Shown piece after piece: positions 18,696 to 59,303 of a stretch of 59,303 nucleotides of DNA. Position 1 is the first letter of the stretch. Each line of letters opens with the position of its first letter. Where the stretch lies: assembly GCA_016207415.1 (NCBI GenBank), contig JACQPT010000093.1, positions 1 to 59,303 on the forward strand. Direction: 5' to 3'. Under the pieces are notes generated by a model. The model ran no database searches. It was not told the DNA's origin and was given only the letters and a program-made list of their open reading frames with translations. The position numbers and the translations under genes were made by a program. The stretch is from Ignavibacteriales bacterium (GTDB lineage: Bacteria > Bacteroidota > Ignavibacteria > UBA10030).

Positions 18696-19382
18696 ATGGT
18701 CAATATGACCATCGTCGTCATACTCAGTTACATTGTAGGATCCATCCCCACCAGCGTGATGTTGTCGAAGTGGAGACACGGCTTCGATATCCGCACAAAG
18801 GGGAGCGGCAACGCAGGTGGCACGAATGTGTTTCGCGTTCTTGGGTGGAAATCCGGTTTGTTTGTGATGGCCGTTGATGTTATGAAAGGAGTCATTGCGA
18901 CGACGATCGCAGCCAGGTTGTTCTGGGATCCGACGCTGCCTTTCTACAACCGGACACCTTTCGACGATTTCACTATTATTCAGATGATTTGCGGCGCAGC
19001 TGCCATCGTCGGACACATCTGGACGGTGTTTGCCGGGTTCAAAGGTGGAAAAGGAATTGCCACCGCCGCCGGCATGCTCATCGGCATTGCGCCGACGGAA
19101 TTCGCAGTTTCGGCGCTCGTGTTTTTTGCAGTCTTCTTCGCGTGGAAATACGTTTCTCTGGGATCTATCGCGGCTGCCATCGCTTTCCCTTTGTCCATTA
19201 TCATCCGTCACAACATTCTCTCGGATGAAATCCATAGTTATCACACTCTTGTGTTCTTCAGCCTCGGAGTGGCTGTTGTCCTGGTGTATTCCCACCGAAA
19301 AAACATCAAGCGTCTCCTCGAAGGAACGGAAAACAGAATGGTTTTCCCCCCTCGAAAAGAAATGGAGTCGGCCAAAGGATAA
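18696..19382 (+). CDS. plsY: Glycerol-3-phosphate acyltransferase PlsY
   Basis: 228 aa, multi-TM, with GSGNAGGTN, DVMKG and GHIWTVFAGFKGGKGIATAAG motifs. Confidence 0.9.
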   Translation: MVNMTIVVILSYIVGSIPTSVMLSKWRHGFDIRTKGSGNAGGTNVFRVLGWKSGLFVMAVDVMKGVIATTIAARLFWDPTLPFYNRTPFDDFTIIQMICGAAAIVGHIWTVFAGFKGGKGIATAAGMLIGIAPTEFAVSALVFFAVFFAWKYVSLGSIAAAIAFPLSIIIRHNILSDEIHSYHTLVFFSLGVAVVLVYSHRKNIKRLLEGTENRMVFPPRKEMESAKG

Positions 19383-20442: not shown

Positions 20443-20568
20443 TCCTTCCGAAGGATCCATTAGCCGCCCGATAATCCTTCGGAAGGATTACTTAGCCAAC
20501 CCCGATCAGCTCGAAAGATCACTTGGTCGCCGGCTAGTCCTTCGGAAGATCATGCCGAGCTTCCTTGC
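20443..20568. repeat. About four degenerate tandem copies of a ~32-nt unit, each starting with a TCCTTC(C)GGAAGGAT-like mini-palindrome
   Basis: Read directly. R1 is 20443 TCCTTCCGAAGGATCCATTAGCCGCCCGATAA. R2 is 20475 TCCTTCGGAAGGATTACTTAGCCAACCCCGATCAGC. R3 is 20511 TCGAAAGATCACTTGGTCGCCGGCTAG. R4 is 20538 TCCTTCGGAAGATCATGCCGAGC. The repeat fills the gpsA-plsY2 spacer. Confidence 0.75.
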
Positions 20569-21236
20569 TTTCCCACCCTCTTTTCCGTAATTTTCACCAG
20601 GAAAACCCGAAGAAACCCAGTTTGCTTTACATCATCTCTCTCGTATGCGGGTATGTCATTGGCTCTCTCCCAACGGCTTACCTTGTCGTAAAGCAGAAAA
20701 CGGGAGCCGACATTCGTGAGTCCGGAAGCGGCAATGTCGGCGGGTTTAACGCTTTTCGTGTCACAAACTCAAAGCTGATAGGTTATCTCGTCGGTGTGCT
20801 CGACGGACTTAAAGGTCTTGTGGTCGTCCTGCTTGTTGAGGTTTTCGTCGGAGAGGATTTCTGGTTGAAAGCTGTTGGGTTGTTCGGCTCAGTTCTCGGA
20901 CATAATTACCCGGTTTGGCTTGGATTCAAGGGCGGCAGAGGTTTGGCAACAGCATGCGGGGGGCTGTTTCTGATCGGCGTCAGCTACACCATTGTTTGGT
21001 GCTCCATGTGGATGCTCGTGTATCGCCTCAAAAAAGACATCCTCTTAGCGAACGTTTTTTGCGTTATAGTAACGCCGATAATACTTGCGGTCATACCAGG
21101 AACGGCAATCCAGGCCGTGATGGTCACCACATCTGAAGCTTCGATATACGTTCAGTTCTCCATCTTTCTGAGCATTATCTTGCTTTTTAGTCATATTGAC
21201 GTGCTGAAGACTTTTATTAAACAAAAAACCGCTTGA
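20565..21236 (+). CDS. Second PlsY-family acyltransferase paralog
   Basis: 223 aa with GSGNVGGFN, DGLKG and GHNYPVWLGFKGGRGLATACG. The start is uncertain: TTG 20565, or TTG 20622, which would give a more typical short N-terminus. Confidence 0.8.
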   Translation: MLSHPLFRNFHQENPKKPSLLYIISLVCGYVIGSLPTAYLVVKQKTGADIRESGSGNVGGFNAFRVTNSKLIGYLVGVLDGLKGLVVVLLVEVFVGEDFWLKAVGLFGSVLGHNYPVWLGFKGGRGLATACGGLFLIGVSYTIVWCSMWMLVYRLKKDILLANVFCVIVTPIILAVIPGTAIQAVMVTTSEASIYVQFSIFLSIILLFSHIDVLKTFIKQKTA

Positions 21237-52639: not shown

Positions 52640-52655
52640 TGGCACGAACGTTGCA
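52640..52655 (+). promoter_or_regulatory. Sigma-54 (RpoN) promoter, TGGCACGAACGTTGCA
   Basis: Exact match to TGGCACG-N4-TTGCW with correct -24/-12 spacing. It lies 46 nt upstream of ATG 52701 and follows a ~270-nt gene-free region. Confidence 0.8.
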
Positions 52656-52700: not shown

Positions 52701-55169
52701 ATGTACGACCTGAACAAGATATTCCCCTGGCTGTCTATTCGCAGCAAGCTCATCATTGCCTTCACGGGGCTTTCCATCATTCCCGTTGCTTTGGTTGGCC
52801 TGCACGGTATTTTTTCGAATGTCAAAATGATGAAGGACATCGCTTACGAGAATCTCTCTCACGATGTCCACATCATTCGCAGAAACACGTCGAATTTTCT
52901 TTCGGGAGTTGACGCCGACCTTCGACTGATTCGGAACTTCTCTTCATTCCGTCGTCTCGAACTTGTTCTTGAACGTTCTCCTTTTCCTGTCGAACACCGT
53001 TCCCTTCAGCAATTGACCGATGAACTCCTTGCGTTTGCAGAGTCGAAGAACATTTATTATCAGGTCCGGCTTCTGAATGGCCAGGGGGACGAATTGTTAA
53101 GGGTTGAATCCGAGAGCTCTTCAGACCAACGTCGCGTGTATCGCTCTGCCGAACGCTCCGACCTTAACCAAAGCCGTGAAAGCTACTATTCTCTCCTTGT
53201 GGAGAATTTGCGCCAGGATGAAATTATCTTTGCCGCTGCCGAGCTTTCAGACCGAAACAACAACCGGGTTCCGGTCATTAGTTTTGCAATGCCAATAAAT
53301 GGCGCAGAGAGGCGTTTGGGAATTCTGATTGCAAATGTTTACGCGAAAGACCTCTTTCAGGCAGTGGAGGCGGGCCGGCATCTTGACGTGAAAGGCAAAG
53401 TAGTGCTCGTGAACAACGAAGGGCACTATCTCTATCATTCAGACAAGAAAAAAGAATGGAATAAGTTGCTTGCTTCCCGGGAAGAAGACAACCTCGCGCG
53501 GGATTACCCATCAGAAGTTACTGCTGCGATTCTGTCGGGAAAGGAAGGCATTTTTACAGATGCGGGCGGCGAAATTATTTCGTATGGCCCGCTCTTTTAT
53601 GAACAAAAAGCTTTGTTGAATAATGAGGGAGTTGCTGGCCTGTCGCTCCCATTCTTTGTTTTCGAGGCTCTCCACGAGGACGTGGTATTAGGTCCCGCAT
53701 GGTCGTTTGCCTGGACGTTCGGAGGTTTTCTGGTTTTGTTTCTCGGCACGTCCGTCGGGCTTGGATTGCTCGCCACGCGCCAATTCACAAGGCCCATCGC
53801 CGACCTCCAACAAGGAGCAGAGATCATTGCGCGGGGGAACTACGGCCATCGATTGGATGTGAAAACGCATGACGAGATTGAGAAGCTTGGGGAACAATTC
53901 AACCTTATGGCCCGCTCCCTTGAGGAACACGAACGTGAAATACAACGACACAGACAGGGGCTTGAAGTGCTCGTGCAACAGCGTACGCGGGAGTTGACGG
54001 AAGAGAAGACAAAACTCAAGGCAATTCTGGATAATGTTCCGAACGCGTTTGTCCTTTTAGATGAGGAATACCGCATAGTGACCGCAAGCGCCACGTTTGC
54101 GGCCGTTACAGGTCTTCAAATCCAGGACGTGAGGGGCAAGGATTGTGCCGATGTGTTTTGCAAGAATGGGTTTTGCAAAAAGTGTGTGTCGAGACAGGCG
54201 GTTTCCACCGGACGTATTGCGAGTCACATCGATATGGTCGCCAGTGATCACGGCGCAGAGCGGTTTATCGAGCACACAGCGATCCCCCTGCATGAAGACG
54301 GGCACATCAAGTCTATTCTTGAAATCATTACCGACGTAACGGAGCGCAAACGATTTGAGCAGCATCTTCTCCAAACCGAGAGGCTTATGGCCACGGGAGA
54401 AATGTCGGCTCTCATTGCACATGAATTTCGTAACTCGTTGACCTCCGTGAAGATGATTTTGCAGCTTCAGAGCGAGTCGAAAAGGCGCAATGCCTCCGAG
54501 AAAAAATCACTGACGGTGGCATTGAATTCAATTCATCACATGGAACAAATCGTGGCTGAACTGTTGAGCTTCGCAAGGCCCACACCGCTTCAATTTCAGG
54601 CGACGAATGTGACTTCGGTTATTCATGAAAGCCTCAGCTTTGTGGAACCTCATTTTATGAGACAGCGTATCCAGTTAAGCAAATCTCTTGACTCCAGCCT
54701 TCCTCTCCTGCTGCTTGATTCGCAACGGTTCAAAGAAACGTTGGTCAATATTCTTCTGAACGCCGTTCAAGCAATTGAAACCAAGCCGGAGCGGCAGAAG
54801 CAGGAAGTTGTGTCCGTCACCGCAAAAAGGACATTTTTGCGGGAAACCCTTCGTGATTTCACGTTCAACCATCTTCTTGATGGCCAAAGGACGAACAACA
54901 GGGAGGACGGTCGGGAAATTGTGCTTTTGAAAGGAAGTGAGTGCGCCGTTGTCAGTATCAGCGATTCCGGCCCGGGAATCTCAAAAGGCCTTAGGGAGCG
55001 CATTTTTGACCCATTCTTCACGACGAAAGCGAATGGAACCGGCCTTGGGTTGCCGATGGTAAAGCAGACGGTGCACGCTCACGGGGGCATCGTGAACGTG
55101 AAATGTTCGAGGGGGCAGGGAACTACGTTCAGTATCTTCTTACCTCTTTCAAATGGAGCGAGACGATGA
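52701..55169 (+). CDS. Sensor histidine kinase (TM, ~300-aa extracytoplasmic Cache-like domain, TM, HAMP, Cys-rich PAS, HisKA, HATPase)
   Basis: I chose ATG 52701 because the ORF-track start at 52599 lies upstream of the sigma-54 promoter. Two TM segments flank a large loop. HAMP is RPIADLQQGAEIIARGNYGHRL, PAS is ILDNVPNAFVLLD, the H-box is IAHEFRNSL, and the G-boxes are DSGPGI and GTGLGLPMV. Confidence 0.9.
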   Translation: MYDLNKIFPWLSIRSKLIIAFTGLSIIPVALVGLHGIFSNVKMMKDIAYENLSHDVHIIRRNTSNFLSGVDADLRLIRNFSSFRRLELVLERSPFPVEHRSLQQLTDELLAFAESKNIYYQVRLLNGQGDELLRVESESSSDQRRVYRSAERSDLNQSRESYYSLLVENLRQDEIIFAAAELSDRNNNRVPVISFAMPINGAERRLGILIANVYAKDLFQAVEAGRHLDVKGKVVLVNNEGHYLYHSDKKKEWNKLLASREEDNLARDYPSEVTAAILSGKEGIFTDAGGEIISYGPLFYEQKALLNNEGVAGLSLPFFVFEALHEDVVLGPAWSFAWTFGGFLVLFLGTSVGLGLLATRQFTRPIADLQQGAEIIARGNYGHRLDVKTHDEIEKLGEQFNLMARSLEEHEREIQRHRQGLEVLVQQRTRELTEEKTKLKAILDNVPNAFVLLDEEYRIVTASATFAAVTGLQIQDVRGKDCADVFCKNGFCKKCVSRQAVSTGRIASHIDMVASDHGAERFIEHTAIPLHEDGHIKSILEIITDVTERKRFEQHLLQTERLMATGEMSALIAHEFRNSLTSVKMILQLQSESKRRNASEKKSLTVALNSIHHMEQIVAELLSFARPTPLQFQATNVTSVIHESLSFVEPHFMRQRIQLSKSLDSSLPLLLLDSQRFKETLVNILLNAVQAIETKPERQKQEVVSVTAKRTFLRETLRDFTFNHLLDGQRTNNREDGREIVLLKGSECAVVSISDSGPGISKGLRERIFDPFFTTKANGTGLGLPMVKQTVHAHGGIVNVKCSRGQGTTFSIFLPLSNGARR

Positions 55170-56560
55170 GCCAGCCAACCGTCATGGTTGTGGATGATGA
55201 TCCCAAAATTCTCTTCGCCTTTCAAGAGGTTTTGCGAACTGAGGGATACAAGAGTGTGATGGCAAAGGATGGTGAGGAGGCACTGGGCAAAATTGCAGCC
55301 AGGAACCCCAATGTTATTTTTCTCGATGTCACCATGCCAAAGCTGGACGGCCTCGAATTGTTGAAACGGATAAAGGAAAACAAAGAACTTGCTCCCGTCA
55401 TCATAATTACGGGTTATGGAACGATGCAGACGGCGATCAAGGCGATGCAGCTCGGCGCTTTTGAGTATCTCACCAAGCCACTCGACGTGGCGAAGATCAG
55501 AGAGGTAACGCAGAAAGCCCTGGCGAGCACGCAGAGTTCGAAGATATCCGGGCATCAATCGCTCTACGTTGGAGATATGGTTGAACCGTATGAGCTGGTA
55601 GGGAGCAGTCCAACAATGCAGGAAGTGTACAAGCTGATCGGCTCTATTTCAACGACGCCGAACCATACGTCGGTGATGATCCTTGGGGAAAGCGGGTCGG
55701 GGAAAGAGCTTGTTTCGAGAACAATTCACAAAACAAGCGCGAATGCCAATCAACCTTTTGTTCCCATCAACTGCACAGCACTGCCGGAGCCGCTGCTTGA
55801 ATCTGAGCTCTTCGGCCACGAGAAAGGAGCGTTCACCGGGGCAGTTGAGCGCAAGCTCGGCAAGTTTGAAATCGCCCACACGGGAACAATCTTCCTTGAC
55901 GAAATCGGGAATCTCTCCCCTCCGCTGCAGCAAAAGCTTCTGCGTGTTTTGCAGGAACGTGAGTTTGAGCGGCTTGGTGGAAACGCGTCCATCCGCGTTG
56001 ATGCCCGCTTCATTGCTGCAACAAACCGGGACATTGCTGCCGATGTCAAAAAAGGGAGTTTTCGGGAGGATTTGTTCTTTCGGCTGAACGTTGTGACGGT
56101 GAGCCTGCCTCCGCTTCGTGAGCGCGGAGAGGACATCCCGCTGCTTGCCAACTACTTCATGAAAAAATACAATGAGCAGCTGAAGAAATATATCAAAGGT
56201 TTTTCCCATGAAGCGATGACCCTCCTCCAGAGACATTCATACCTTGGCAATGTCCGCGAGTTGGAAAATCTGATTGAGCGCGCTGTGATGTTAACAAAAG
56301 GTGAGGTGGTCCTTCCGGACTCGATTGGCGAACCGCATCCTCCGGCCCATGACAGAGTCTCTCTTCCAATCACCAGCCAGACATTCAGCAAATCGCGGAT
56401 CGATCTGCTCAATATGTTTGAACGACAGTTTGTTTCAGAGCAACTCGTCAAACACCACGGCAATGTCACGGCTGCCGCAAGAGCCTCGAAAATGACCCGC
56501 CAGAATTTTCAGCGGTTGATGACCAAGCATCGCCTTCACGCCAAGCAGTTCCGCAGCTAA
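55166..56560 (+). CDS. Sigma-54-dependent response regulator (NtrC family enhancer-binding protein)
   Basis: ATGA overlap with the kinase stop. Receiver domain (VVDDDP...FLDVTMP...LTKP), an AAA+ domain with GESGSGKE and the GAFTGA loop, and a C-terminal Fis-type HTH. Confidence 0.93.
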   Translation: MSQPTVMVVDDDPKILFAFQEVLRTEGYKSVMAKDGEEALGKIAARNPNVIFLDVTMPKLDGLELLKRIKENKELAPVIIITGYGTMQTAIKAMQLGAFEYLTKPLDVAKIREVTQKALASTQSSKISGHQSLYVGDMVEPYELVGSSPTMQEVYKLIGSISTTPNHTSVMILGESGSGKELVSRTIHKTSANANQPFVPINCTALPEPLLESELFGHEKGAFTGAVERKLGKFEIAHTGTIFLDEIGNLSPPLQQKLLRVLQEREFERLGGNASIRVDARFIAATNRDIAADVKKGSFREDLFFRLNVVTVSLPPLRERGEDIPLLANYFMKKYNEQLKKYIKGFSHEAMTLLQRHSYLGNVRELENLIERAVMLTKGEVVLPDSIGEPHPPAHDRVSLPITSQTFSKSRIDLLNMFERQFVSEQLVKHHGNVTAAARASKMTRQNFQRLMTKHRLHAKQFRS

Positions 56561-56699: not shown

Positions 56700-56715
56700 T
56701 GGTATAGCCATTGAT
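56700..56715 (+). promoter_or_regulatory. Weak sigma-54-like element TGGTATAGCCATTGAT with correct GG/TTG spacing
   Basis: The GG at -24 and TTG at -12 are correctly spaced, but -12 reads GA rather than GC. It lies 29 nt upstream of ATG 56744. Confidence 0.3.
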
Positions 56716-56743: not shown

Positions 56744-57121
56744 ATGCATTTCCAGCCGAAAGTCCTCGTTGTCGATGACGACATAAACATTCTGGCGGCG
56801 TTTGAAGATTTTCTGAGAAAAGAGCATTGCTACATGCTTTCAGCAATGTCCGCCGAAGAAGCTCTCAAGAAATTGAAAGACGATCGCGTGGATTTACTCG
56901 TTACCGACGTGAGATTGAAGTTCCACTCCGGGATCACATTTCTCCTGGATGTCAAAAGCAGACTGCCAAAACTTCCTGTCATCGTTGTCACAGGTTATCC
57001 TGATCTCATCACCGAACAGGACGCGAGAGCTTGTGGTGCAGATTACTTTCTCTTAAAACCGCTGGAAATTGACAGGCTGCGGAGCGCAGTCAGAAAATGC
57101 TTACACCTAAACAACAATTAG
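56744..57121 (+). CDS. Stand-alone CheY-like receiver domain protein
   Basis: 125 aa with the VLVVDDD acidic pocket, the LLVTDVRL phospho-acceptor Asp context and LLKPLE. Confidence 0.85.
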   Translation: MHFQPKVLVVDDDINILAAFEDFLRKEHCYMLSAMSAEEALKKLKDDRVDLLVTDVRLKFHSGITFLLDVKSRLPKLPVIVVTGYPDLITEQDARACGADYFLLKPLEIDRLRSAVRKCLHLNNN

Positions 57122-57175: not shown

Positions 57176-58423
57176 ATGAATAGGATTCTGCGTCTTTTCG
57201 CCGTAACACTGATCGCGGTTGTGCTGGTGGAAGTTGGCTACGCCATACCATCGTTTTCACGGAAGTACAAGACGAGTTGCAGCACGTGTCACTACGCTGC
57301 TCCAATGCTTAACGGATTCGGAAAAGCATTCAAAAACAACGGCTATCGTTATCCTGCCGGAACCGATCCAGAGATGACAAAGGAAGAGCCTGTCAGTTTG
57401 GGCTCGGAGGGCTACAAGAAGGTGTGGCCGGAAGCTATCTGGCCGAGTGATATCCCTGGAACCAGCCCCTTGTCTATTTGGGGTATTGGACGGATCAACT
57501 ATGCAGCGATGAATGACGTAAAGTGGGAGTTTGAGTTTCCGCACGAGGTTGAAATTCTGTACGCTGGTACGATTGGCGAGAATTTCTCCTTCTTTGGCGA
57601 ACTGGAATTCGAAAACGAGGATAATCAAAACGAGATTATGTACCCGTTTGCACTCCAGTATGATTGGAGTCCCGGATTGCACATTCGAGCTGGCATGGTC
57701 CATGCCGATCCGACGCCGAACCACCTGAAACTCACGCGCAATCACTACAATATCGCAAGCTTCCGAAGTCGTAATCGCTGGAGATTCCGTGATGAACAAA
57801 TCGGCCTGGAGGTATGGGGCGCGGGCAATGGGTCGGGTGAGCGTGGAGGCTATACCTATCGAGCTGGCGTTGTCAACGGTCAAGGGATCAACGATATGAA
57901 CAAAGAGAAGGATATCTACGGCAAGGTCACTTACAAAATTGGGGGACTTGGTGAGACTGGAGGAACCGCAGGAGCAGAAAGCCAAACTTCTGAGTTCTTC
58001 ATCGATAACAGCGTCACCGTCGGCGGATTTTTCTATAAAGGCACAGCTTCCAGGGCCGGTTTCAACGATGAAGACTTTACGATCTTCGGAGGCGACGTCG
58101 ATTACTGGTATGACCGGTTTATTGTCAACGGCGCCCTCATGTTCATGAATTCCGGGATGCCAGGGATTCCCGAGAGGAAATCCATGGTGTATTATCTTCA
58201 GGGCAACCACGTCATTTACCCGTGGCTCATAGGCCTTATCCGGTATGAATGGGAAGATGCGGATACCGATCAGGACGCTGTCAAGCCCGTGAACGCCTTT
58301 ATTCCTGGTGTCACTGTCATGGCACGTGCAAACGTGAAACTTGTCCTTGAGTTCAAGATGTTCCTGGACGATGTCAACAAGAAAAACGACACGTTTACGC
58401 TGCAAATGAATTTCGGCCTGTAA
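57176..58423 (+). CDS. Outer-membrane fused monoheme cytochrome c / beta-barrel protein (Cyc2-like candidate)
   Basis: A GGAGG sequence lies 5 nt upstream. The protein has a signal peptide and a single CSTCH at residues 35-39, followed by P-M-L. The remaining ~370 aa are Gly/aromatic-rich with alternating hydrophobicity, and the C-terminus is ...LQMNFGL. Confidence 0.6.
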   Translation: MNRILRLFAVTLIAVVLVEVGYAIPSFSRKYKTSCSTCHYAAPMLNGFGKAFKNNGYRYPAGTDPEMTKEEPVSLGSEGYKKVWPEAIWPSDIPGTSPLSIWGIGRINYAAMNDVKWEFEFPHEVEILYAGTIGENFSFFGELEFENEDNQNEIMYPFALQYDWSPGLHIRAGMVHADPTPNHLKLTRNHYNIASFRSRNRWRFRDEQIGLEVWGAGNGSGERGGYTYRAGVVNGQGINDMNKEKDIYGKVTYKIGGLGETGGTAGAESQTSEFFIDNSVTVGGFFYKGTASRAGFNDEDFTIFGGDVDYWYDRFIVNGALMFMNSGMPGIPERKSMVYYLQGNHVIYPWLIGLIRYEWEDADTDQDAVKPVNAFIPGVTVMARANVKLVLEFKMFLDDVNKKNDTFTLQMNFGL

Positions 58424-58439
58424 GAAAAAAGGAGTACAC

Positions 58440-59036
58440 ATGAACAGAATCAAAATTGTCGTTTCGATTTCTCTGCTGTTCCTTCTTTCGCAGCCTCTGT
58501 TTGCGGGCGATATCAAGGGAAAAGTGAAAGCGAAAGGCGTGAAACACAGCGGTGACGCGGTGGTCTACATCGAGAAAATCGACGGCAAGACGTTCGACGT
58601 CCCGAAAGATCATGCGAAAATGGACCAGAAGAATCTGACGTTCATTCCGCATGTGTTGCCCGTTCTTGCCGGAACGACGGTGGACTACCTCAACAGTGAC
58701 GAAGTCCTTCACAATGTCTTCAGTCCTGAAACTTGCGTGGACAAGTTCAACCTCGGCACGTGGCCGAAGGGCCAGATCAGGTCGTACACATTCAAAAAGT
58801 CGGGTTGCATACCGGTGATGTTATGCAATGTGCATCCGGAGATGGAAGCCTATGTGATCGTCCTTGAGACGCCATATCACGGCGTGACCGCGAAGGACGG
58901 CACGTATGAGATCAAAGATGTGCTTCCCGGAAAGTATGAGCTGAAGATTTGGCACGAAAAACTGAAAGGCGCATCTGTGGTAGTGGAGGTTCCGGAACAT
59001 GGAGAGGTTGTTGTCAACTTTGACATCAAAAGATAA
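58440..59036 (+). CDS. Secreted cupredoxin-like protein (candidate type-1 Cu site H91/C129/H132/M135) with a C-terminal CarboxypepD_reg-like beta-sandwich
   Basis: 198 aa with a signal peptide. HNVFS followed ~38 residues later by CNVHPEM gives C-x2-H-x2-M spacing, as in the amicyanin CTPHPFM. The C-terminus is DGTYEIKDVLPGKYELKIWHEKL. Confidence 0.62.
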   Translation: MNRIKIVVSISLLFLLSQPLFAGDIKGKVKAKGVKHSGDAVVYIEKIDGKTFDVPKDHAKMDQKNLTFIPHVLPVLAGTTVDYLNSDEVLHNVFSPETCVDKFNLGTWPKGQIRSYTFKKSGCIPVMLCNVHPEMEAYVIVLETPYHGVTAKDGTYEIKDVLPGKYELKIWHEKLKGASVVVEVPEHGEVVVNFDIKR

Positions 59037-59086: not shown

Positions 59087-59242
59087 ATGGAGAAAGCGAT
59101 CGTAGTTCGTGGATGGGCTGTCATGGGTTTTGTTGTGGGGCTCCTGTTTTTTCTGATGCAGACAGACTCACGGGTGAGGCCCCTCAGACGTTCAAGCTTC
59201 TTATGGAACCTAGTGCACTCGTACTGGCTGCCGGCGGGCTGA
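59087..59242 (+). CDS. Possible 51-aa membrane peptide; the frame assignment is ambiguous
   Basis: The ATG is preceded by GAGGTGAGG, and one TM helix is present (WAVMGFVVGLLFFLM). A second frame is open from at least nt 59029 (first plausible starts GTG 59077 / ATG 59113) to the window end. It encodes another TM helix (SALVLAAGGLMGVSCALFALSFL), so the true gene model is unclear. Confidence 0.2.
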   Translation: MEKAIVVRGWAVMGFVVGLLFFLMQTDSRVRPLRRSSFLWNLVHSYWLPAG

Positions 59243-59303
59243 TGGGAGTTTCTTGCGCATTATTTGCGCTCTCATTTCTCAAGATCAGCAAAAAGCACAA
59301 GAA

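What the first reader, a model, noticed from the sequence alone, without database searches (positions are those of the whole stretch)
57176..58423. Cyc2-like fused cytochrome-porin: candidate outer-membrane iron oxidase or electron conduit
The 415-aa product begins with a signal peptide (MNRILRLFAVTLIAVVLVEVGYA). It has exactly one heme c motif, C35-S-T-C38-H39 (nt 57278-57292), about 12 residues after the predicted cleavage site. This is followed by P43-M-L45, which corresponds to the PxL feature reported after the heme motif in Cyc2. The remaining ~370 aa are Gly/aromatic-rich with alternating hydrophobicity and end in ...TLQMNFGL, which is beta-barrel-like. This is the architecture described for the Cyc2/Cyt572 Fe(II) oxidases of Acidithiobacillus, Zetaproteobacteria, Leptospirillum and Chlorobium ferrooxidans. 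In what appears from gene content to be an FCB-group organism, it would imply lithotrophic Fe(II) oxidation or another form of extracellular electron exchange.
Basis: partly seen in the sequence, partly recalled or inferred. Interest (0 to 1): 0.75.

Follow-up and report, generated by a model that had tools for sequence, protein, structure and literature searches.

The report
Cyc2-type cytochrome-porin with blue-copper partner
[quoted passage not shown] This Ignavibacteriales bacterium can therefore probably exchange electrons with dissolved iron or a similar compound outside the cell, but the direction is unproven and such genes have been reported in this group before.

Summary
ORF 57176-58423(+) encodes a 415-aa protein with a signal peptide, one CxxCH (its only two cysteines) and PxL, followed by a confidently predicted 16-strand porin. 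The haem motif and a roughly 75-residue N-terminal region are invariant in 116 homologs.

It carries the published Cyc2 signature (AxPxF[A/S]RKY-x3-CxxCH-x3-PxL). It is homologous to Cyc2 of Zetaproteobacteria, Gallionellaceae and Acidithiobacillus (HHalign 99%). It falls outside the Cluster 1 and Cluster 2 proxies (100% bootstrap), in the heterogeneous "FARKY"/Cluster-3-like remainder, where function is least certain.

Sixteen bp downstream lies an amicyanin-like type-1 copper protein whose four Cu ligands are invariant. In syntenic loci the operon continues into an anammox-type Rieske/cytochrome b complex with an Nfn-like NAD(P) oxidoreductase, an octahaem and a monohaem cytochrome c. Eisenbacteria have a Qrc-like complex instead. 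A sigma-54 two-component system sits upstream.

Best reading: the outer-membrane end of a regulated electron path to the quinone pool, most likely oxidising dissolved Fe(II). Outward electron export is a serious rival.

FeGenie surveys already report Cyc2 in Ignavibacteriales, so this is a new member of a known kind. The conserved gene module is the fresher part.

The parts
57176..58423 (+). Cyc2-family fused monohaem cytochrome c / 16-strand porin (415 aa)
   Evidence: ORF; 499 word-indexed homologs and 3521 representative clusters; AF2 model; Foldseek porins; homology to Cyc2 proxies
57176..57244 (+). Signal peptide (aa 1-23), predicted cleavage after GYA
   Evidence: Read from the sequence: R3/R6, a hydrophobic core, small residues at -3/-1. 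The N-terminus is variable in sequence but always hydrophobic in all homologs. No dedicated predictor was available.
57242..57268 (+). Cyc2 signature A23-I-P-S-F-S-R-K-Y31 (AxPxF[A/S]R[K][Y])
   Evidence: Motif defined in Keffer 2021. The family consensus is AIPAFARKY. Counts among 267 retrieved proteins: FARKY 144, FSRKY 77.
57278..57292 (+). Haem c attachment motif C35-S-T-C38-H39
   Evidence: Invariant in 116/116 full-length homologs and in all 136 superfamily sequences aligned; these are the only two Cys in the protein
57302..57310 (+). P43-M-L45 (PxL, P is the 4th residue after His39)
   Evidence: P43 and L45 are invariant and 96% conserved across the superfamily. PxL is described for Cyc2.
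57380..57460 (+). Subfamily-specific, highly conserved linker (aa 69-95, KEEPVSLGSEGYKKVWPEAIWPSDIPG), modelled with low confidence
   Evidence: Invariant or near-invariant K69, P72, G76, K81, P85, A87, P90, G95. pLDDT <50 over aa 73-95. Gapped against the Cluster 1 and 2 proxies in HHalign.
57470..58417 (+). 16-strand beta-barrel (aa 99-414)
   Evidence: DSSP strands in the AF2 model. Foldseek hits: Omp32, OmpF, OmpT, OprP 2o4v, E 1e-9 to 4e-8, TM about 0.6 on the target.
58440..59036 (+). Co-transcribed periplasmic type-1 (blue) copper protein: amicyanin-like cupredoxin (aa ~40-141) plus a CarboxypepD_reg-like beta-sandwich (aa ~137-195). Cu ligands: H91 (58710-58712), C129 (58824-58826), H132 (58833-58835), M135 (58842-58844).
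   Evidence: 16-bp gap after the Cyc2-like stop codon, with AGGAG upstream. Pfam/NCBIfam hits are weak. PDB phmmer finds amicyanin and a CuNiR cupredoxin domain at 3e-4 to 8e-4 with the ligands aligned. The ligands are invariant in 5 orthologs and 42 homologs. AF2 pLDDT 86. Foldseek top hits are amicyanin and plastocyanin. The gene is adjacent to the Cyc2-like gene in L001-L004 and in 20/66 FARKY-type loci.
56744..57121 (+). Single-domain response regulator directly upstream (54-bp gap)
   Evidence: Pfam Response_reg 1e-22; present in L001 too
56700..56715 (+). Sigma-54-like -24/-12 element TGGTATAGCCATTGAT upstream of the RR/Cyc2-like/cupredoxin operon
   Evidence: TGGYAY-N5-TTG at the equivalent place in the window, L001 and L003. 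Weaker versions occur in L002 and L004. The -12 GC is not canonical, so this is tentative.
55103..56560 (+). Sigma-54-dependent response regulator (likely true start ATG 55166, overlapping the kinase stop codon)
   Evidence: Pfam Response_reg + Sigma54_activat 5e-67 + AAA_lid_14 + HTH_8; conserved next to the Cyc2-like gene in L001-L004
52599..55169 (+). Sensor histidine kinase (dCache-like sensor, HAMP, PAS, HisKA, HATPase; likely true start ATG ~52701)
   Evidence: Pfam; conserved in L001-L004
52640..52655 (+). Perfect sigma-54 promoter consensus TGGCACGAACGTTGCA upstream of the kinase gene
   Evidence: Single zero-mismatch match in the window, 0.04 expected by chance. Not conserved in the other loci.
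59087..59303 (+). Small hydrophobic ORF(s) between the cupredoxin gene and the window end. They correspond to an uncalled ~73-aa two-helix membrane protein in L001 that precedes the flavoprotein gene.
   Evidence: Translations of the window tail and of L001 11633-11906. The window copy changes frame midway relative to L001.

Best explanation
The gene encodes a Cyc2-family protein. An N-terminal domain of about 45 residues carries one covalently bound haem c and is fused to a 16-strand outer-membrane porin. It is the outer-membrane end of a sigma-54-regulated electron-transport module.

Proposed path: a small soluble redox species enters the pore and exchanges one electron with the haem. The haem exchanges it with the co-transcribed periplasmic amicyanin-like blue-copper protein and a lipoprotein monohaem cytochrome c. 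These connect through a membrane-anchored octahaem cytochrome c to a quinone-pool complex. In the close relatives that complex is an anammox-type Rieske/cytochrome b complex with an Nfn-like NAD(P) oxidoreductase subunit.

My committed reading of direction is inward. Dissolved Fe(II) is oxidised at the haem, as shown biochemically for the three characterised Cyc2 proteins. The electrons enter a high-potential copper/cytochrome c pool that feeds a terminal reductase encoded elsewhere. The Rieske/b-NAD(P) complex provides the link to quinol and NAD(P)H.

Shown here: the architecture, family membership, conservation, the cupredoxin partner and the gene linkage. Inferred: haem attachment, localisation, substrate and direction. 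The complexes beyond the cupredoxin gene are seen only in syntenic relatives, because the window ends 267 bp after that gene.

The confidence given (0.5) is for the whole statement including the Fe(II)-oxidising direction. For the core claim alone, a Cyc2-family outer-membrane haem-porin acting as an electron conduit, I would say about 0.9.
For: Architecture. Invariant CxxCH/PxL and a conserved N-terminal domain.

Family membership: the Cyc2 signature and criteria are in Keffer 2021. BLASTP hits all 94 signature-bearing proteins from named genomes, including Gallionellaceae 1e-10, Sideroxydans 2e-9, Acidithiobacillus 6e-7 and Zetaproteobacteria 2e-6. HHalign gives 99.0% / E 7e-18 against the Cluster 1 proxies and 99.1% / E 1e-18 against the Cluster 2 proxies.

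Partner: the cupredoxin with invariant H-C-H-M ligands is supported. This is the same pairing as cyc2 + rusticyanin in the Acidithiobacillus rus operon (my knowledge; the L029 cyc2-cyc1 order is).

Conserved module in L001-L004. Rieske closest to Kuste4569/Kustd1480 and flavoprotein closest to Nfn.

Published Cyc2 models place a periplasmic carrier between Cyc2, a terminal oxidase and complex III. Keffer et al. argue that a single haem in a narrow 16-strand pore fits a dissolved substrate such as Fe2+. Type-1 Cu proteins with axial Met are normally high-potential carriers (established knowledge), which suits electrons coming from Fe(II) rather than electrons going to Fe(III) oxides.
Against: The protein lies outside the clades holding the validated neutrophilic (Cluster 1) and Acidithiobacillus (Cluster 2) oxidases, with 100% bootstrap for those groups excluding it. 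Keffer et al. say function in the remaining diversity is the most uncertain.

The literal PxFAR motif is FSR in this protein.

No terminal oxidase or carbon-fixation gene is in the cluster or the window. What is co-encoded instead is a quinol-oxidising type of complex, whose closest named relatives include the Geobacter ExtOPQS proteins of a reductive pathway.

The Ignavibacteria literature read here calls them obligate heterotrophs and known iron reducers.

No conserved distal haem ligand was found. The haem domain and linker are modelled with low confidence. No redox potential can be read from sequence.
Confidence: 0.5

Rival explanations
1. Same hardware, opposite direction. Quinol is oxidised by the Rieske/b (or Qrc-like) complex. 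Electrons pass via the octahaem, the monohaem c and the cupredoxin to the Cyc2-like haem, which reduces a soluble extracellular or pore-entering acceptor such as chelated Fe(III), Mn(III)/Mn(IV), quinones/humics or selenite/tellurite. In the relatives with the Nfn-like subunit, this high-potential outlet would be the exergonic branch that pays for NAD(P)+ reduction by quinol bifurcation.
For: The cluster contains a complete path from a quinol-oxidising complex to the outer membrane and no terminal oxidase. The cytochrome b, SUIV-like protein and c-cytochrome come close to ExtP (281 bits against a 290 cut-off), ExtQ and ExtS of the Geobacter extHIJKLMNOPQS cluster. That cluster also contains a phosphate-porin-like outer-membrane protein and acts reductively. 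The anammox complexes of this type are proposed to need an exergonic acceptor reaction. Ignavibacteria are described as iron reducers, and Cyc2 homologs have been noted in Fe(III)-reducing taxa.
Against: All three biochemically tested Cyc2 proteins act as Fe(II) oxidases. A single buried haem cannot touch solid Fe(III) or Mn(IV) minerals. A Met-ligated type-1 copper carrier is expected to be too high in potential for most Fe(III) oxides (established knowledge, not measured here). In the Eisenbacteria locus the quinone-pool complex is closest to Qrc, which in Desulfovibrio reduces menaquinone from periplasmic cytochromes, i.e. runs inward (my knowledge).
Confidence: 0.3
2. It is a Cyc2-type oxidase for a different dissolved reductant, for example Mn(II) as proposed for Ca. 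Manganitrophus, reduced humics, or another metal ion, rather than Fe(II).
For: Cyc2 homologs occur in Mn(II)-oxidising and nitrite-oxidising Nitrospirota and are proposed there to take part in Mn lithotrophy. The FARKY-type Cyc2 + cupredoxin + monohaem c module is present in Nitrospira defluvii and other Nitrospirales. The subfamily has its own conserved 25-residue linker that could shape substrate access.
Against: No biochemical evidence exists for any non-iron substrate of a Cyc2 protein in the papers read. Nothing in the window or neighbouring genes points to Mn, for example no multicopper oxidase or PCC dodecahaem.
Confidence: 0.1
3. It is not a respiratory component. It would instead be a porin whose haem serves iron or haem acquisition, redox sensing or detoxification, for example oxidising incoming Fe2+ for uptake as in the cupredoxin-dependent Ftr systems.
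For: The L001 neighbourhood also holds FtrD-like, HMBD and DUF4198 genes a few kb away. Cupredoxins take part in Fe2+ uptake systems (my knowledge).
Against: Those genes are not conserved in L002-L004, whereas the Rieske/b or Qrc-like complex and the octahaem and monohaem cytochromes are. The tight operon structure with respiratory complexes across four phyla argues for electron transport to the quinone pool.
Confidence: 0.05

Closest known systems
Cyc2 of Mariprofundus ferrooxydans PV-1 and other Cluster 1 Cyc2 (Zetaproteobacteria, Gallionellaceae, Chlorobium)
   Same: Signal peptide, one N-terminal CxxCH, the AxPxFAR[Q/K][T/Y] signature with the same 3-residue spacing to CxxCH, PxL, roughly 400-470 aa and a 16-strand OprP/OmpF-like barrel. 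HHalign 99% over the cytochrome domain and the first two strands.
   Different: FSRKY/FARKY rather than FARQTG. An extra conserved ~25-residue linker. Separated from the Cluster 1 proxies with 100% bootstrap. BLASTP identity is confined to about 35-55 residues for the Zetaproteobacteria. The cupredoxin partner is absent from the Cluster 1 proxy loci.
Acidithiobacillus ferrooxidans Cyc2 and the rus operon (cyc2-cyc1-cox-rus)
   Same: An outer-membrane Cyc2 genetically linked to a periplasmic type-1 copper protein and c-cytochromes (my knowledge of the rus operon). The Acidithiobacillus MAG proxy L029 shows a cyc2-like gene followed by a dihaem c. BLASTP 27% over 130 aa, E 6e-7; HHalign 99.1%.
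   Different: Different clade (the Cluster 2-like group excludes the target, 100% bootstrap). The copper protein here is amicyanin-like with an added beta-sandwich domain, not rusticyanin. An aa3 oxidase is not co-encoded; instead there is a Rieske/b or Qrc-like complex. The organism is neutrophilic and belongs to the FCB group.
Cluster 3 Cyc2 / Cyt572 of Leptospirillum and the second Cyc2 type of Zetaproteobacteria
   Same: By elimination the target belongs with this heterogeneous group. It shares the FARKY form of the signature with the Mariprofundus second-type Cyc2 (L007, L072) and with Nitrospirales sequences. FeGenie surveys report mainly 'cluster 3' Cyc2 at sites where Ignavibacteriales MAGs carry iron-oxidation genes.
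   Different: No Leptospirillum sequence was obtained, so the assignment is not anchored. The target's clade (with Eisenbacteria, Myxococcota and Planctomycetota) has only 58% bootstrap and is distant from L007.
Geobacter sulfurreducens extHIJKLMNOPQS cluster
   Same: A ~45-kDa phosphate-porin-like outer-membrane protein encoded with c-cytochromes, a Rieske protein, a b6-type cytochrome b, a small membrane subunit and a lipoprotein cytochrome c. L001 cytochrome b scores 281 bits against the ExtP model (cut-off 290), with weaker ExtQ and ExtS matches.
   Different: ExtI has no fused haem domain. The cluster has a rhodanese, a selenoprotein cytochrome and 10- and 12-haem cytochromes, and no cupredoxin or NAD(P) oxidoreductase. 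ExtI homology to the target was not tested.
Kuenenia stuttgartiensis Rieske/cytochrome b complexes Kuste4569-4574 and Kustd1480-1485
   Same: For the downstream genes seen in L001-L003: a split b6-type cytochrome b, a hexa- or octahaem c in place of cytochrome f, and an Nfn-like NAD(P) oxidoreductase subunit. The two anammox Rieske structures are the top PDB hits for the L001 Rieske protein. The NfnABC homolog reported for the anammox reductase (9bp5) shares its sequence entry with the second-best PDB hit of the L001 flavoprotein (9bov), after NfnA 9n5u.
   Different: No HAO-like protein. The complex is linked to an outer-membrane cytochrome-porin and a cupredoxin. It occurs in non-anammox FCB and other phyla. 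These genes lie beyond the end of the window.
MtrCAB / MtoAB / PioAB porin-cytochrome complexes
   Same: An outer-membrane barrel plus c-type haem used for transmembrane electron transfer.
   Different: Those use a 26-strand barrel with a separate decahaem inserted. Here the barrel has 16 strands and one fused haem, and no decahaem gene is adjacent.

Membership tests
Cyc2 fused cytochrome-porin (criteria of Keffer et al. 2021 / McAllister et al. 2020) | N-terminal signal peptide | tested here: met
   Read directly from the sequence: aa 1-23 with basic residues, a hydrophobic core and GYA. The equivalent region is hydrophobic in all aligned homologs. No SignalP was available.
Cyc2 fused cytochrome-porin (criteria of Keffer et al. 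2021 / McAllister et al. 2020) | Single CxxCH haem c motif near the N-terminus | tested here: met
   C35-x-x-C38-H39 is the only CxxCH and holds the only two Cys. Invariant in 116 homologs.
Cyc2 fused cytochrome-porin (criteria of Keffer et al. 2021 / McAllister et al. 2020) | AxPxFAR[Q/K][T/Y] motif upstream of CxxCH (the authors call it unique to Cyc2 and used it as a filter) | tested here: inconclusive
   The target reads A-I-P-S-F-S-R-K-Y. Eight of nine positions fit and the spacing to CxxCH is the same, but the literal 'FAR' is 'FSR', so a strict regular expression would drop it. The family consensus is FARKY (144 FARKY against 77 FSRKY among 267 sequences). The region aligns to the FARQT motif of the Cyc2 proxies with 99% HHalign probability.
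Cyc2 fused cytochrome-porin (criteria of Keffer et al. 2021 / McAllister et al. 2020) | PxL motif 4 residues after CxxCH | tested here: met
   P43-M-L45; P43 is the 4th residue after H39; invariant
Cyc2 fused cytochrome-porin (criteria of Keffer et al. 2021 / McAllister et al. 2020) | Length at least 365-400 aa | tested here: met
   415 aa; criterion given
Cyc2 fused cytochrome-porin (criteria of Keffer et al. 2021 / McAllister et al. 2020) | 16-strand beta-barrel porin structurally like OprO/OprP | tested here: met
   The AF2 model has 16 strands, pTM 0.83. Foldseek PDB gives Omp32, OmpF and OmpT at the top, with OprP 2o4v at rank 37, E 3.7e-8.
Cyc2 fused cytochrome-porin (criteria of Keffer et al. 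2021 / McAllister et al. 2020) | Detectable sequence homology to accepted Cyc2 proteins | tested here: met
   BLASTP is significant against all 94 signature proteins, including those from Gallionellaceae, Sideroxydans, Zetaproteobacteria and Acidithiobacillus. HHalign gives 99% against both proxy sets. The references are proxies taken from named genomes, not the type-strain proteins.
Cyc2 fused cytochrome-porin (criteria of Keffer et al. 2021 / McAllister et al. 2020) | Score above the calibrated cut-off of a FeGenie Cyc2 HMM | not testable with these tools
   The FeGenie models are not in any library offered. Pfam, NCBIfam and PDB have no Cyc2 model.
Cyc2 fused cytochrome-porin (criteria of Keffer et al. 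2021 / McAllister et al. 2020) | Covalent haem, outer-membrane location, Fe(II) oxidase activity | not testable with these tools
   These are biochemical properties and are only inferred here.
Cyc2 Cluster 1 (neutrophilic iron oxidisers) | Falls inside the well-supported clade of Zetaproteobacteria, Gallionellaceae and Chlorobium Cyc2 | tested here: not met
   In the NJ tree of 136 sequences, the Cluster 1 proxy clade excludes the target with 100% bootstrap.
Cyc2 Cluster 2 (Acidithiobacillus type) | Falls with Acidithiobacillus Cyc2 and its proteobacterial relatives | tested here: not met
   The FARQT half, and the Cluster 2-like group within it, exclude the target with 100% bootstrap.
Cyc2 Cluster 3 (Leptospirillum Cyt572, second Zetaproteobacteria type) | Falls with Cyt572 and Zetaproteobacteria Cluster 3 sequences | tested here: inconclusive
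   The target sits in the same FARKY half as the Mariprofundus second-type Cyc2 (L007), but not close to it. No Leptospirillum sequence was recovered. The target's own clade has 58% support.
MtrAB/MtoAB/PioAB porin-cytochrome complexes | 26-strand barrel enclosing a separate decahaem cytochrome | tested here: not met
   16 strands and a fused single haem. No decahaem is adjacent in the window or in L001-L004.
Type-1 (blue) copper cupredoxins (for the partner ORF 58440-59036) | Cupredoxin fold with His...Cys-x2-His-x2-Met copper ligands | tested here: met
   H91, C129, H132 and M135 are invariant and align to the amicyanin ligands. The AF2 model with Foldseek gives amicyanin and plastocyanin. 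Copper binding itself was not tested.
[quoted passage not shown] | Rieske + split b6-type cytochrome b + multihaem c in place of cytochrome f + NAD(P) oxidoreductase subunit in one cluster | tested here: met
   The Rieske protein is closest to 9rk4/9rk3. The flavoprotein is closest to Nfn. These genes lie outside the window and are inferred for this genome by synteny only.

The most novel reading that the evidence does not exclude
The conserved module is a single machine. It comprises the FARKY-type Cyc2, the amicyanin-like cupredoxin with a beta-sandwich domain, the octahaem c and the lipoprotein monohaem c, joined to an anammox-type Rieske/b complex carrying an Nfn-like NAD(P) oxidoreductase. 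In this machine, electron exchange with an extracellular species through the outer-membrane cytochrome-porin is the high-potential branch of a quinol-bifurcating complex that makes NAD(P)H. This would give non-anammox bacteria in several phyla (Ignavibacteriota, Eisenbacteria, Planctomycetota, Acidobacteriota) a previously unrecognised way to couple extracellular redox chemistry directly to the production of low-potential reductant. It would also identify a physiological partner reaction for a class of Rieske/b complexes whose exergonic half-reaction is still unassigned in Kuenenia (Kustd1480-1485).
Probability: 0.15. Interest if true: 0.8.

Novelty: new member of a known kind. Interest (0 to 1): 0.5.

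Why it matters
Cyc2 is the main genetic marker used to infer microbial iron oxidation in metagenomes. Yet most of its diversity lies outside the clades with biochemical support, and this gene is part of that diversity.

This gene shows that a groundwater Ignavibacteriales lineage, a group the literature read here describes as heterotrophic and iron-reducing, carries a full regulated module linking an outer-membrane cytochrome-porin to the quinone pool. That module includes a blue-copper carrier.

The recurring gene neighbourhood offers concrete, testable handles for deciding what the large uncharacterised part of the Cyc2 family does and in which direction it runs. The neighbourhood consists of the cupredoxin, the octahaem c, an NAD(P)-reductase-type Rieske/b complex or a Qrc-like complex, and a sigma-54 two-component system.

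It also cautions against reading every FeGenie 'Cyc2' hit as lithotrophic iron oxidation.

Tried and rejected
- **Library scans of the target.** Pfam, NCBIfam and PDB sequence searches found nothing meaningful. These libraries have no Cyc2 model, so the absence is uninformative.
- **Exact-sequence look-up.** The window protein is not on record in the contig index. Context had to come from homologs.
- **Genome scan.** The accepted pattern required FAR rather than F[A/S]R, so the target's own FSR subclade is under-sampled. The type-strain Cyc2 proteins and Leptospirillum Cyt572 were therefore not recovered, and MAG or genus-level proxies were used instead.
- **Barrel alignment.** HHalign could not align the barrel beyond the first two strands to the Cluster 1 and 2 proxies. 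Barrel homology rests on the fold, not on sequence.
- **Sigma-54 promoter.** A strict consensus upstream of the Cyc2-like gene was not found in any locus. Only a relaxed TGGYAY-N5-TTG element appears, in three of five loci.
- **Alternative Complex III label.** I first read the Eisenbacteria complex as Alternative Complex III. NCBIfam places it nearest Qrc, though below the cut-offs, so I call it Qrc/ACIII-like.
- **MtrAB-type conduit.** Considered and rejected, because the barrel has 16 strands and no decahaem is adjacent.
- **Plain diffusion porin with a chance CxxCH.** Considered and rejected, because the motif and the surrounding ~75 residues are invariant.
- **Literature.** Searches found no description of this gene cluster in Ignavibacteria. 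They did find prior reports of Cyc2 in Ignavibacteriales/Ignavibacteriaceae MAGs.
- **Tree method.** The tree is neighbour-joining on a trimmed MAFFT alignment, because no maximum-likelihood program was available.


Full report
**Observation.** Residues 1-23 look like a Sec signal peptide. C35-S-T-C38-H39 (nt 57278-57292) is the only CxxCH, and its two cysteines are the only cysteines in the protein. P43-M-L45 follows. The mature chain is 11% Gly and 14.5% aromatic and ends ...TLQMNFGL. The motif is not a chance occurrence. In an alignment of 116 full-length homologs reaching down to 49% identity, C35, C38, H39, P43 and L45 are invariant, and residues 25-95 are the best-conserved stretch of the protein.

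**How large the family is.** The word-indexed search found 499 homologs. The identical protein is an NCBI 'hypothetical protein HY562_05140' from an Ignavibacteriales MAG whose contig has the length of this window. The others come from Ignavibacteria, Bacteroidota, Calditrichaeota, Latescibacteria and Eisenbacteria, and none has a functional name. An exhaustive profile search found 3521 representative clusters at E<=1e-3 and 321 at E<=1e-30. Every full-length member of the best 150 has A.P.F[A/S]RKY.TSC.TCH...P.L..FG at the same position. Pfam, NCBIfam and the PDB sequence set contain nothing that matches.

**Structure.** AlphaFold2 with the 116-sequence alignment gives mean pLDDT 83.4 and pTM 0.83. 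It predicts 16 beta-strands between residues 99 and 414, counting the kinked 151-155/158-165 pair as one strand. Low confidence is confined to residues 20-33 and 73-95. Foldseek against the PDB returns the 16-strand general and specific porins: Omp32, OmpF, OmpT, PorB and OprP 2o4v, with E 1e-9 to 4e-8 and TM about 0.6 on the target. OprP/OprO is the structural match reported for Cyc2.

**Is it a Cyc2?** Keffer et al. 2021 define the family by several features: a signal peptide; one CxxCH; an AxPxFAR[Q/K][T/Y] motif just upstream, which they call unique to Cyc2 and used as a filter; PxL four residues downstream; a length of at least 365 aa; and a 16-strand porin. The target has A23-I-P-S-F-S-R-K-Y31. 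Eight of nine positions fit and the register is right, but Ser replaces the Ala of 'FAR'. The family consensus is FARKY.

To get real comparators I scanned one genome per GTDB species for the back-translated signature. All were ~400-500-aa (where complete) single-haem proteins with the signature near the N-terminus. They came from named genomes including Mariprofundus and other Zetaproteobacteria, Sideroxydans, Gallionellaceae, an Acidithiobacillus MAG, Chlorobiaceae, Nitrospira defluvii, Ignavibacterium album and Melioribacteraceae. In the Acidithiobacillus locus the gene is followed by a dihaem c, as in cyc2-cyc1.

- The target gives significant BLASTP matches to all 94 full-length proteins: best Eisenbacteria 32% over 425 aa; Gallionellaceae 1e-10; Acidithiobacillus 6e-7; Zetaproteobacteria about 2-6e-6.
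- Its family profile aligns to the Cluster 1 proxies at 99.0% (E 7e-18) and to the Cluster 2 proxies at 99.1% (E 1e-18), over the cytochrome domain and the first two strands.
- The rest of the barrel is too divergent to align, as the authors report for the family in general.

So it is a member of the Cyc2 superfamily.

**Which part of the family?** A neighbour-joining tree of 136 sequences splits a 'FARQT' half from a 'FARKY' half. The FARQT half contains a Cluster 1 proxy clade (Zetaproteobacteria and Gallionellaceae) and a Cluster 2-like clade (Acidithiobacillus and many Proteobacteria). All three of those groupings have 100% bootstrap and exclude the target.

The FARKY half holds the second Cyc2 type of Mariprofundus, Nitrospirales, Acidobacteriota, a short (~390-400 aa) Bacteroidales/Ignavibacteria type (93% support), and the target's clade together with Eisenbacteria, Myxococcota and Planctomycetota (58% support). 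McAllister et al. state that Zetaproteobacteria have Cluster 1 and Cluster 3 genes. By elimination the target is therefore 'Cluster 3-like'. I had no Leptospirillum sequence to anchor that assignment. Keffer et al. regard function in this part of the tree as the most uncertain. Relative to Clusters 1 and 2, the target's subfamily has an additional, strongly conserved ~25-residue linker (aa 69-95), which AF2 cannot place.

**The neighbourhood.**
- *Upstream in the window:* a sensor kinase, a sigma-54-dependent response regulator and a single-domain response regulator. Everything further upstream is housekeeping.
- *Downstream in the window:* sixteen bp after the stop codon starts a 198-aa secreted protein. 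Its central domain aligns to amicyanin and to a nitrite-reductase cupredoxin domain, with the four type-1 copper ligands in register. H91, C129, H132 and M135 are invariant in orthologs. An AF2 model (pLDDT 86) hits amicyanin, plastocyanin and pseudoazurin. JGI calls its homologs 'plastocyanin'. The window ends 267 bp later.
- *Syntenic loci:* contigs carrying homologs at 78%, 57% and 52% identity have the same kinase, regulator, Cyc2-like and cupredoxin order. They continue with a ~620-aa Fe-S flavoprotein, a Rieske protein, a split cytochrome b, an octahaem cytochrome c (8 CxxCH) and a monohaem lipoprotein cytochrome c.
- *Eisenbacteria locus:* the Rieske/b set is replaced by a multihaem c, a molybdopterin-like protein, a 4Fe-4S protein and an NrfD protein. 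These are closest to Qrc, below the NCBIfam cut-offs. The octahaem and monohaem cytochromes remain.
- *Wider distribution:* the cupredoxin lies within the fetched 8-kb block of 20 of 66 FARKY-type loci but only 2 of 53 FARQT-type loci. The FARKY loci include Nitrospira defluvii.

**What the downstream complex resembles.** The L001 Rieske protein's two best PDB matches are 9rk4 and 9rk3. These are Kuste4569 and Kustd1480, the Rieske subunits of the two Kuenenia complexes that carry an NAD(P) oxidoreductase and a hexa- or octahaem c, and that are proposed to bifurcate quinol electrons to make NAD(P)H. The flavoprotein's best matches are NfnA (9n5u) and the NfnABC subunit (9bov/9bp5). 9bp5 is the homolog reported for the Kuenenia reductase. 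NCBIfam also places the cytochrome b just under the cut-off of ExtP, and the partners near ExtQ and ExtS. These belong to the Geobacter extHIJKLMNOPQS cluster, which pairs a phosphate-porin-like outer-membrane protein with cytochromes and a Rieske/b core and is implicated in selenite/tellurite reduction.

**Regulation.** One perfect sigma-54 consensus (TGGCACGAACGTTGCA, 52640-52655; 0.04 expected by chance) lies upstream of the kinase's probable start. It is not conserved in the other loci. A relaxed TGGYAY-N5-TTG element lies just upstream of the operon holding the Cyc2-like gene in the window (56700-56715), L001 and L003. This fits control by the adjacent activator but remains tentative.

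**Mechanism.** The parts define a path from the outside of the cell to the quinone pool: pore-embedded haem, then blue copper and monohaem c, then membrane-anchored octahaem, then the Rieske/b (or Qrc-like) complex.

*For the inward, Fe(II)-oxidising direction:*
- All three biochemically tested Cyc2 proteins oxidise Fe(II).
- A single haem in a narrow pore suits a dissolved substrate.
- A Met-ligated type-1 copper carrier is normally high-potential.
- The cyc2 + cupredoxin pairing recalls the rus operon.

*For the outward direction:*
- No oxidase is co-encoded.
- The co-encoded complexes are of the quinol-oxidising kind.
- The cluster resembles the Geobacter Ext cluster.
- The Ignavibacteria literature read here describes them as heterotrophs and iron reducers.
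- The anammox-type complex needs an exergonic acceptor branch.

I commit to Fe(II) oxidation at about 0.5, outward transfer at 0.3, another reductant such as Mn(II) at 0.1, and a non-respiratory role at 0.05.

**Novelty.** Cyc2 homologs have already been reported in Ignavibacteriaceae/Ignavibacteriales MAGs and in other unexpected phyla. The protein is therefore a new member of a known kind. I found no paper describing the FARKY-Cyc2/cupredoxin/octahaem module or its link to an NAD(P)-reductase-type Rieske/b complex. The library searched is incomplete, however.

**Limits.** The references are proxies, not type-strain proteins. The tree is neighbour-joining. The FeGenie HMMs could not be run. 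The complexes downstream of the cupredoxin are inferred for this genome from synteny only. Nothing about haem attachment, localisation, potential or substrate is measured.

Noticed in passing
window 52640-52655 (+): A perfect sigma-54 -24/-12 consensus, TGGCACGAACGTTGCA, is the only zero-mismatch match in the window (0.04 expected). It lies ~45 bp upstream of the probable true start (ATG ~52701) of the histidine kinase, whose mechanical ORF starts earlier at GTG 52599. It suggests autoregulation of the two-component system, but it is not conserved in L001-L004.
   Followed up: partly
window 59087-59303 (+); L001 11633-11906: Between the cupredoxin gene and the flavoprotein gene, L001 has an uncalled ~73-aa ORF with two hydrophobic helices. 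The window tail encodes the same two segments but in two different frames (51-aa ORF 59087-59242, then a frame with no stop running off the end). This is either a frameshift or assembly error in one of them, or a real difference.
   Followed up: partly
window 57257-58516 (-): A 419-aa ORF on the opposite strand overlaps the whole Cyc2-like gene. I presume it is a shadow ORF of the coding strand; it was not searched against anything.
   Followed up: no
L036, L042, L062, L098 (Ignavibacterium album MAG), L016, and Bacteroidales loci L037, L076, L099, L119: Ignavibacteria, Kapabacteria and Bacteroidales carry a second, shorter (~390-400 aa) Cyc2-like type (FARKY..C.TCHSPFP.LK.YGDEFAGNGF). It forms its own clade (93% bootstrap), is only ~25% identical to the target, and has no cupredoxin next to it in the fetched blocks.
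   Followed up: partly
P0112 aa 249; P0251 aa 201; P0257 aa 157: A few family members have a second possible haem site inside the barrel or loop region: a CGHVACH (Cx4CH) within a 20-residue loop insertion in P0112, and extra CxxCH motifs in P0251 and P0257. These could be dihaem variants of the cytochrome-porin.
   Followed up: no
L015 (Candidatus Nitrospira defluvii FP929003.1, 784-792 kb); also L017, L068, L113: The nitrite oxidiser N. defluvii and other Nitrospirales have a FARKY-type Cyc2-like gene with the same cupredoxin and a monohaem cytochrome c nearby, although they are not known to oxidise iron.
   Followed up: partly
window 57380-57460 (aa 69-95 of the Cyc2-like protein): This ~25-residue linker is nearly invariant within the subfamily, is absent from the Cluster 1 and 2 proxies, and is modelled with pLDDT <50. 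Across the whole superfamily no Met or His other than H39 is conserved, so the distal haem ligand is not evident.
   Followed up: partly
L078 (Zetaproteobacteria MAG JAJRVG010000001.1): Two Cluster 1-type cyc2 genes with nearly identical N-termini lie ~3.3 kb apart on the same strand (tandem duplication).
   Followed up: no
L001 14307-14669: A 120-aa Cys-rich ORF lies between the Rieske and cytochrome b genes in L001. It has no Pfam hit and has no counterpart called in L002 or L003.
   Followed up: no
L059, L026, L060 (Acidobacteriota); L117 (Binatia); L094 (Desulfobaccales); L082 (Planctomycetota); L014 (Eisenbacteria): The Nfn-like flavoprotein recurs next to Cyc2-like genes in several other phyla, and the Rieske/cytochrome b genes accompany it in some of these loci. 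The linkage is therefore not peculiar to the Ignavibacteria-related loci L001-L003.
   Followed up: partly
window 18696-19382 and 20565-21236 (+): Two PlsY-type glycerol-3-phosphate acyltransferase paralogs flank the gpsA gene. This is unrelated to the finding.
   Followed up: no
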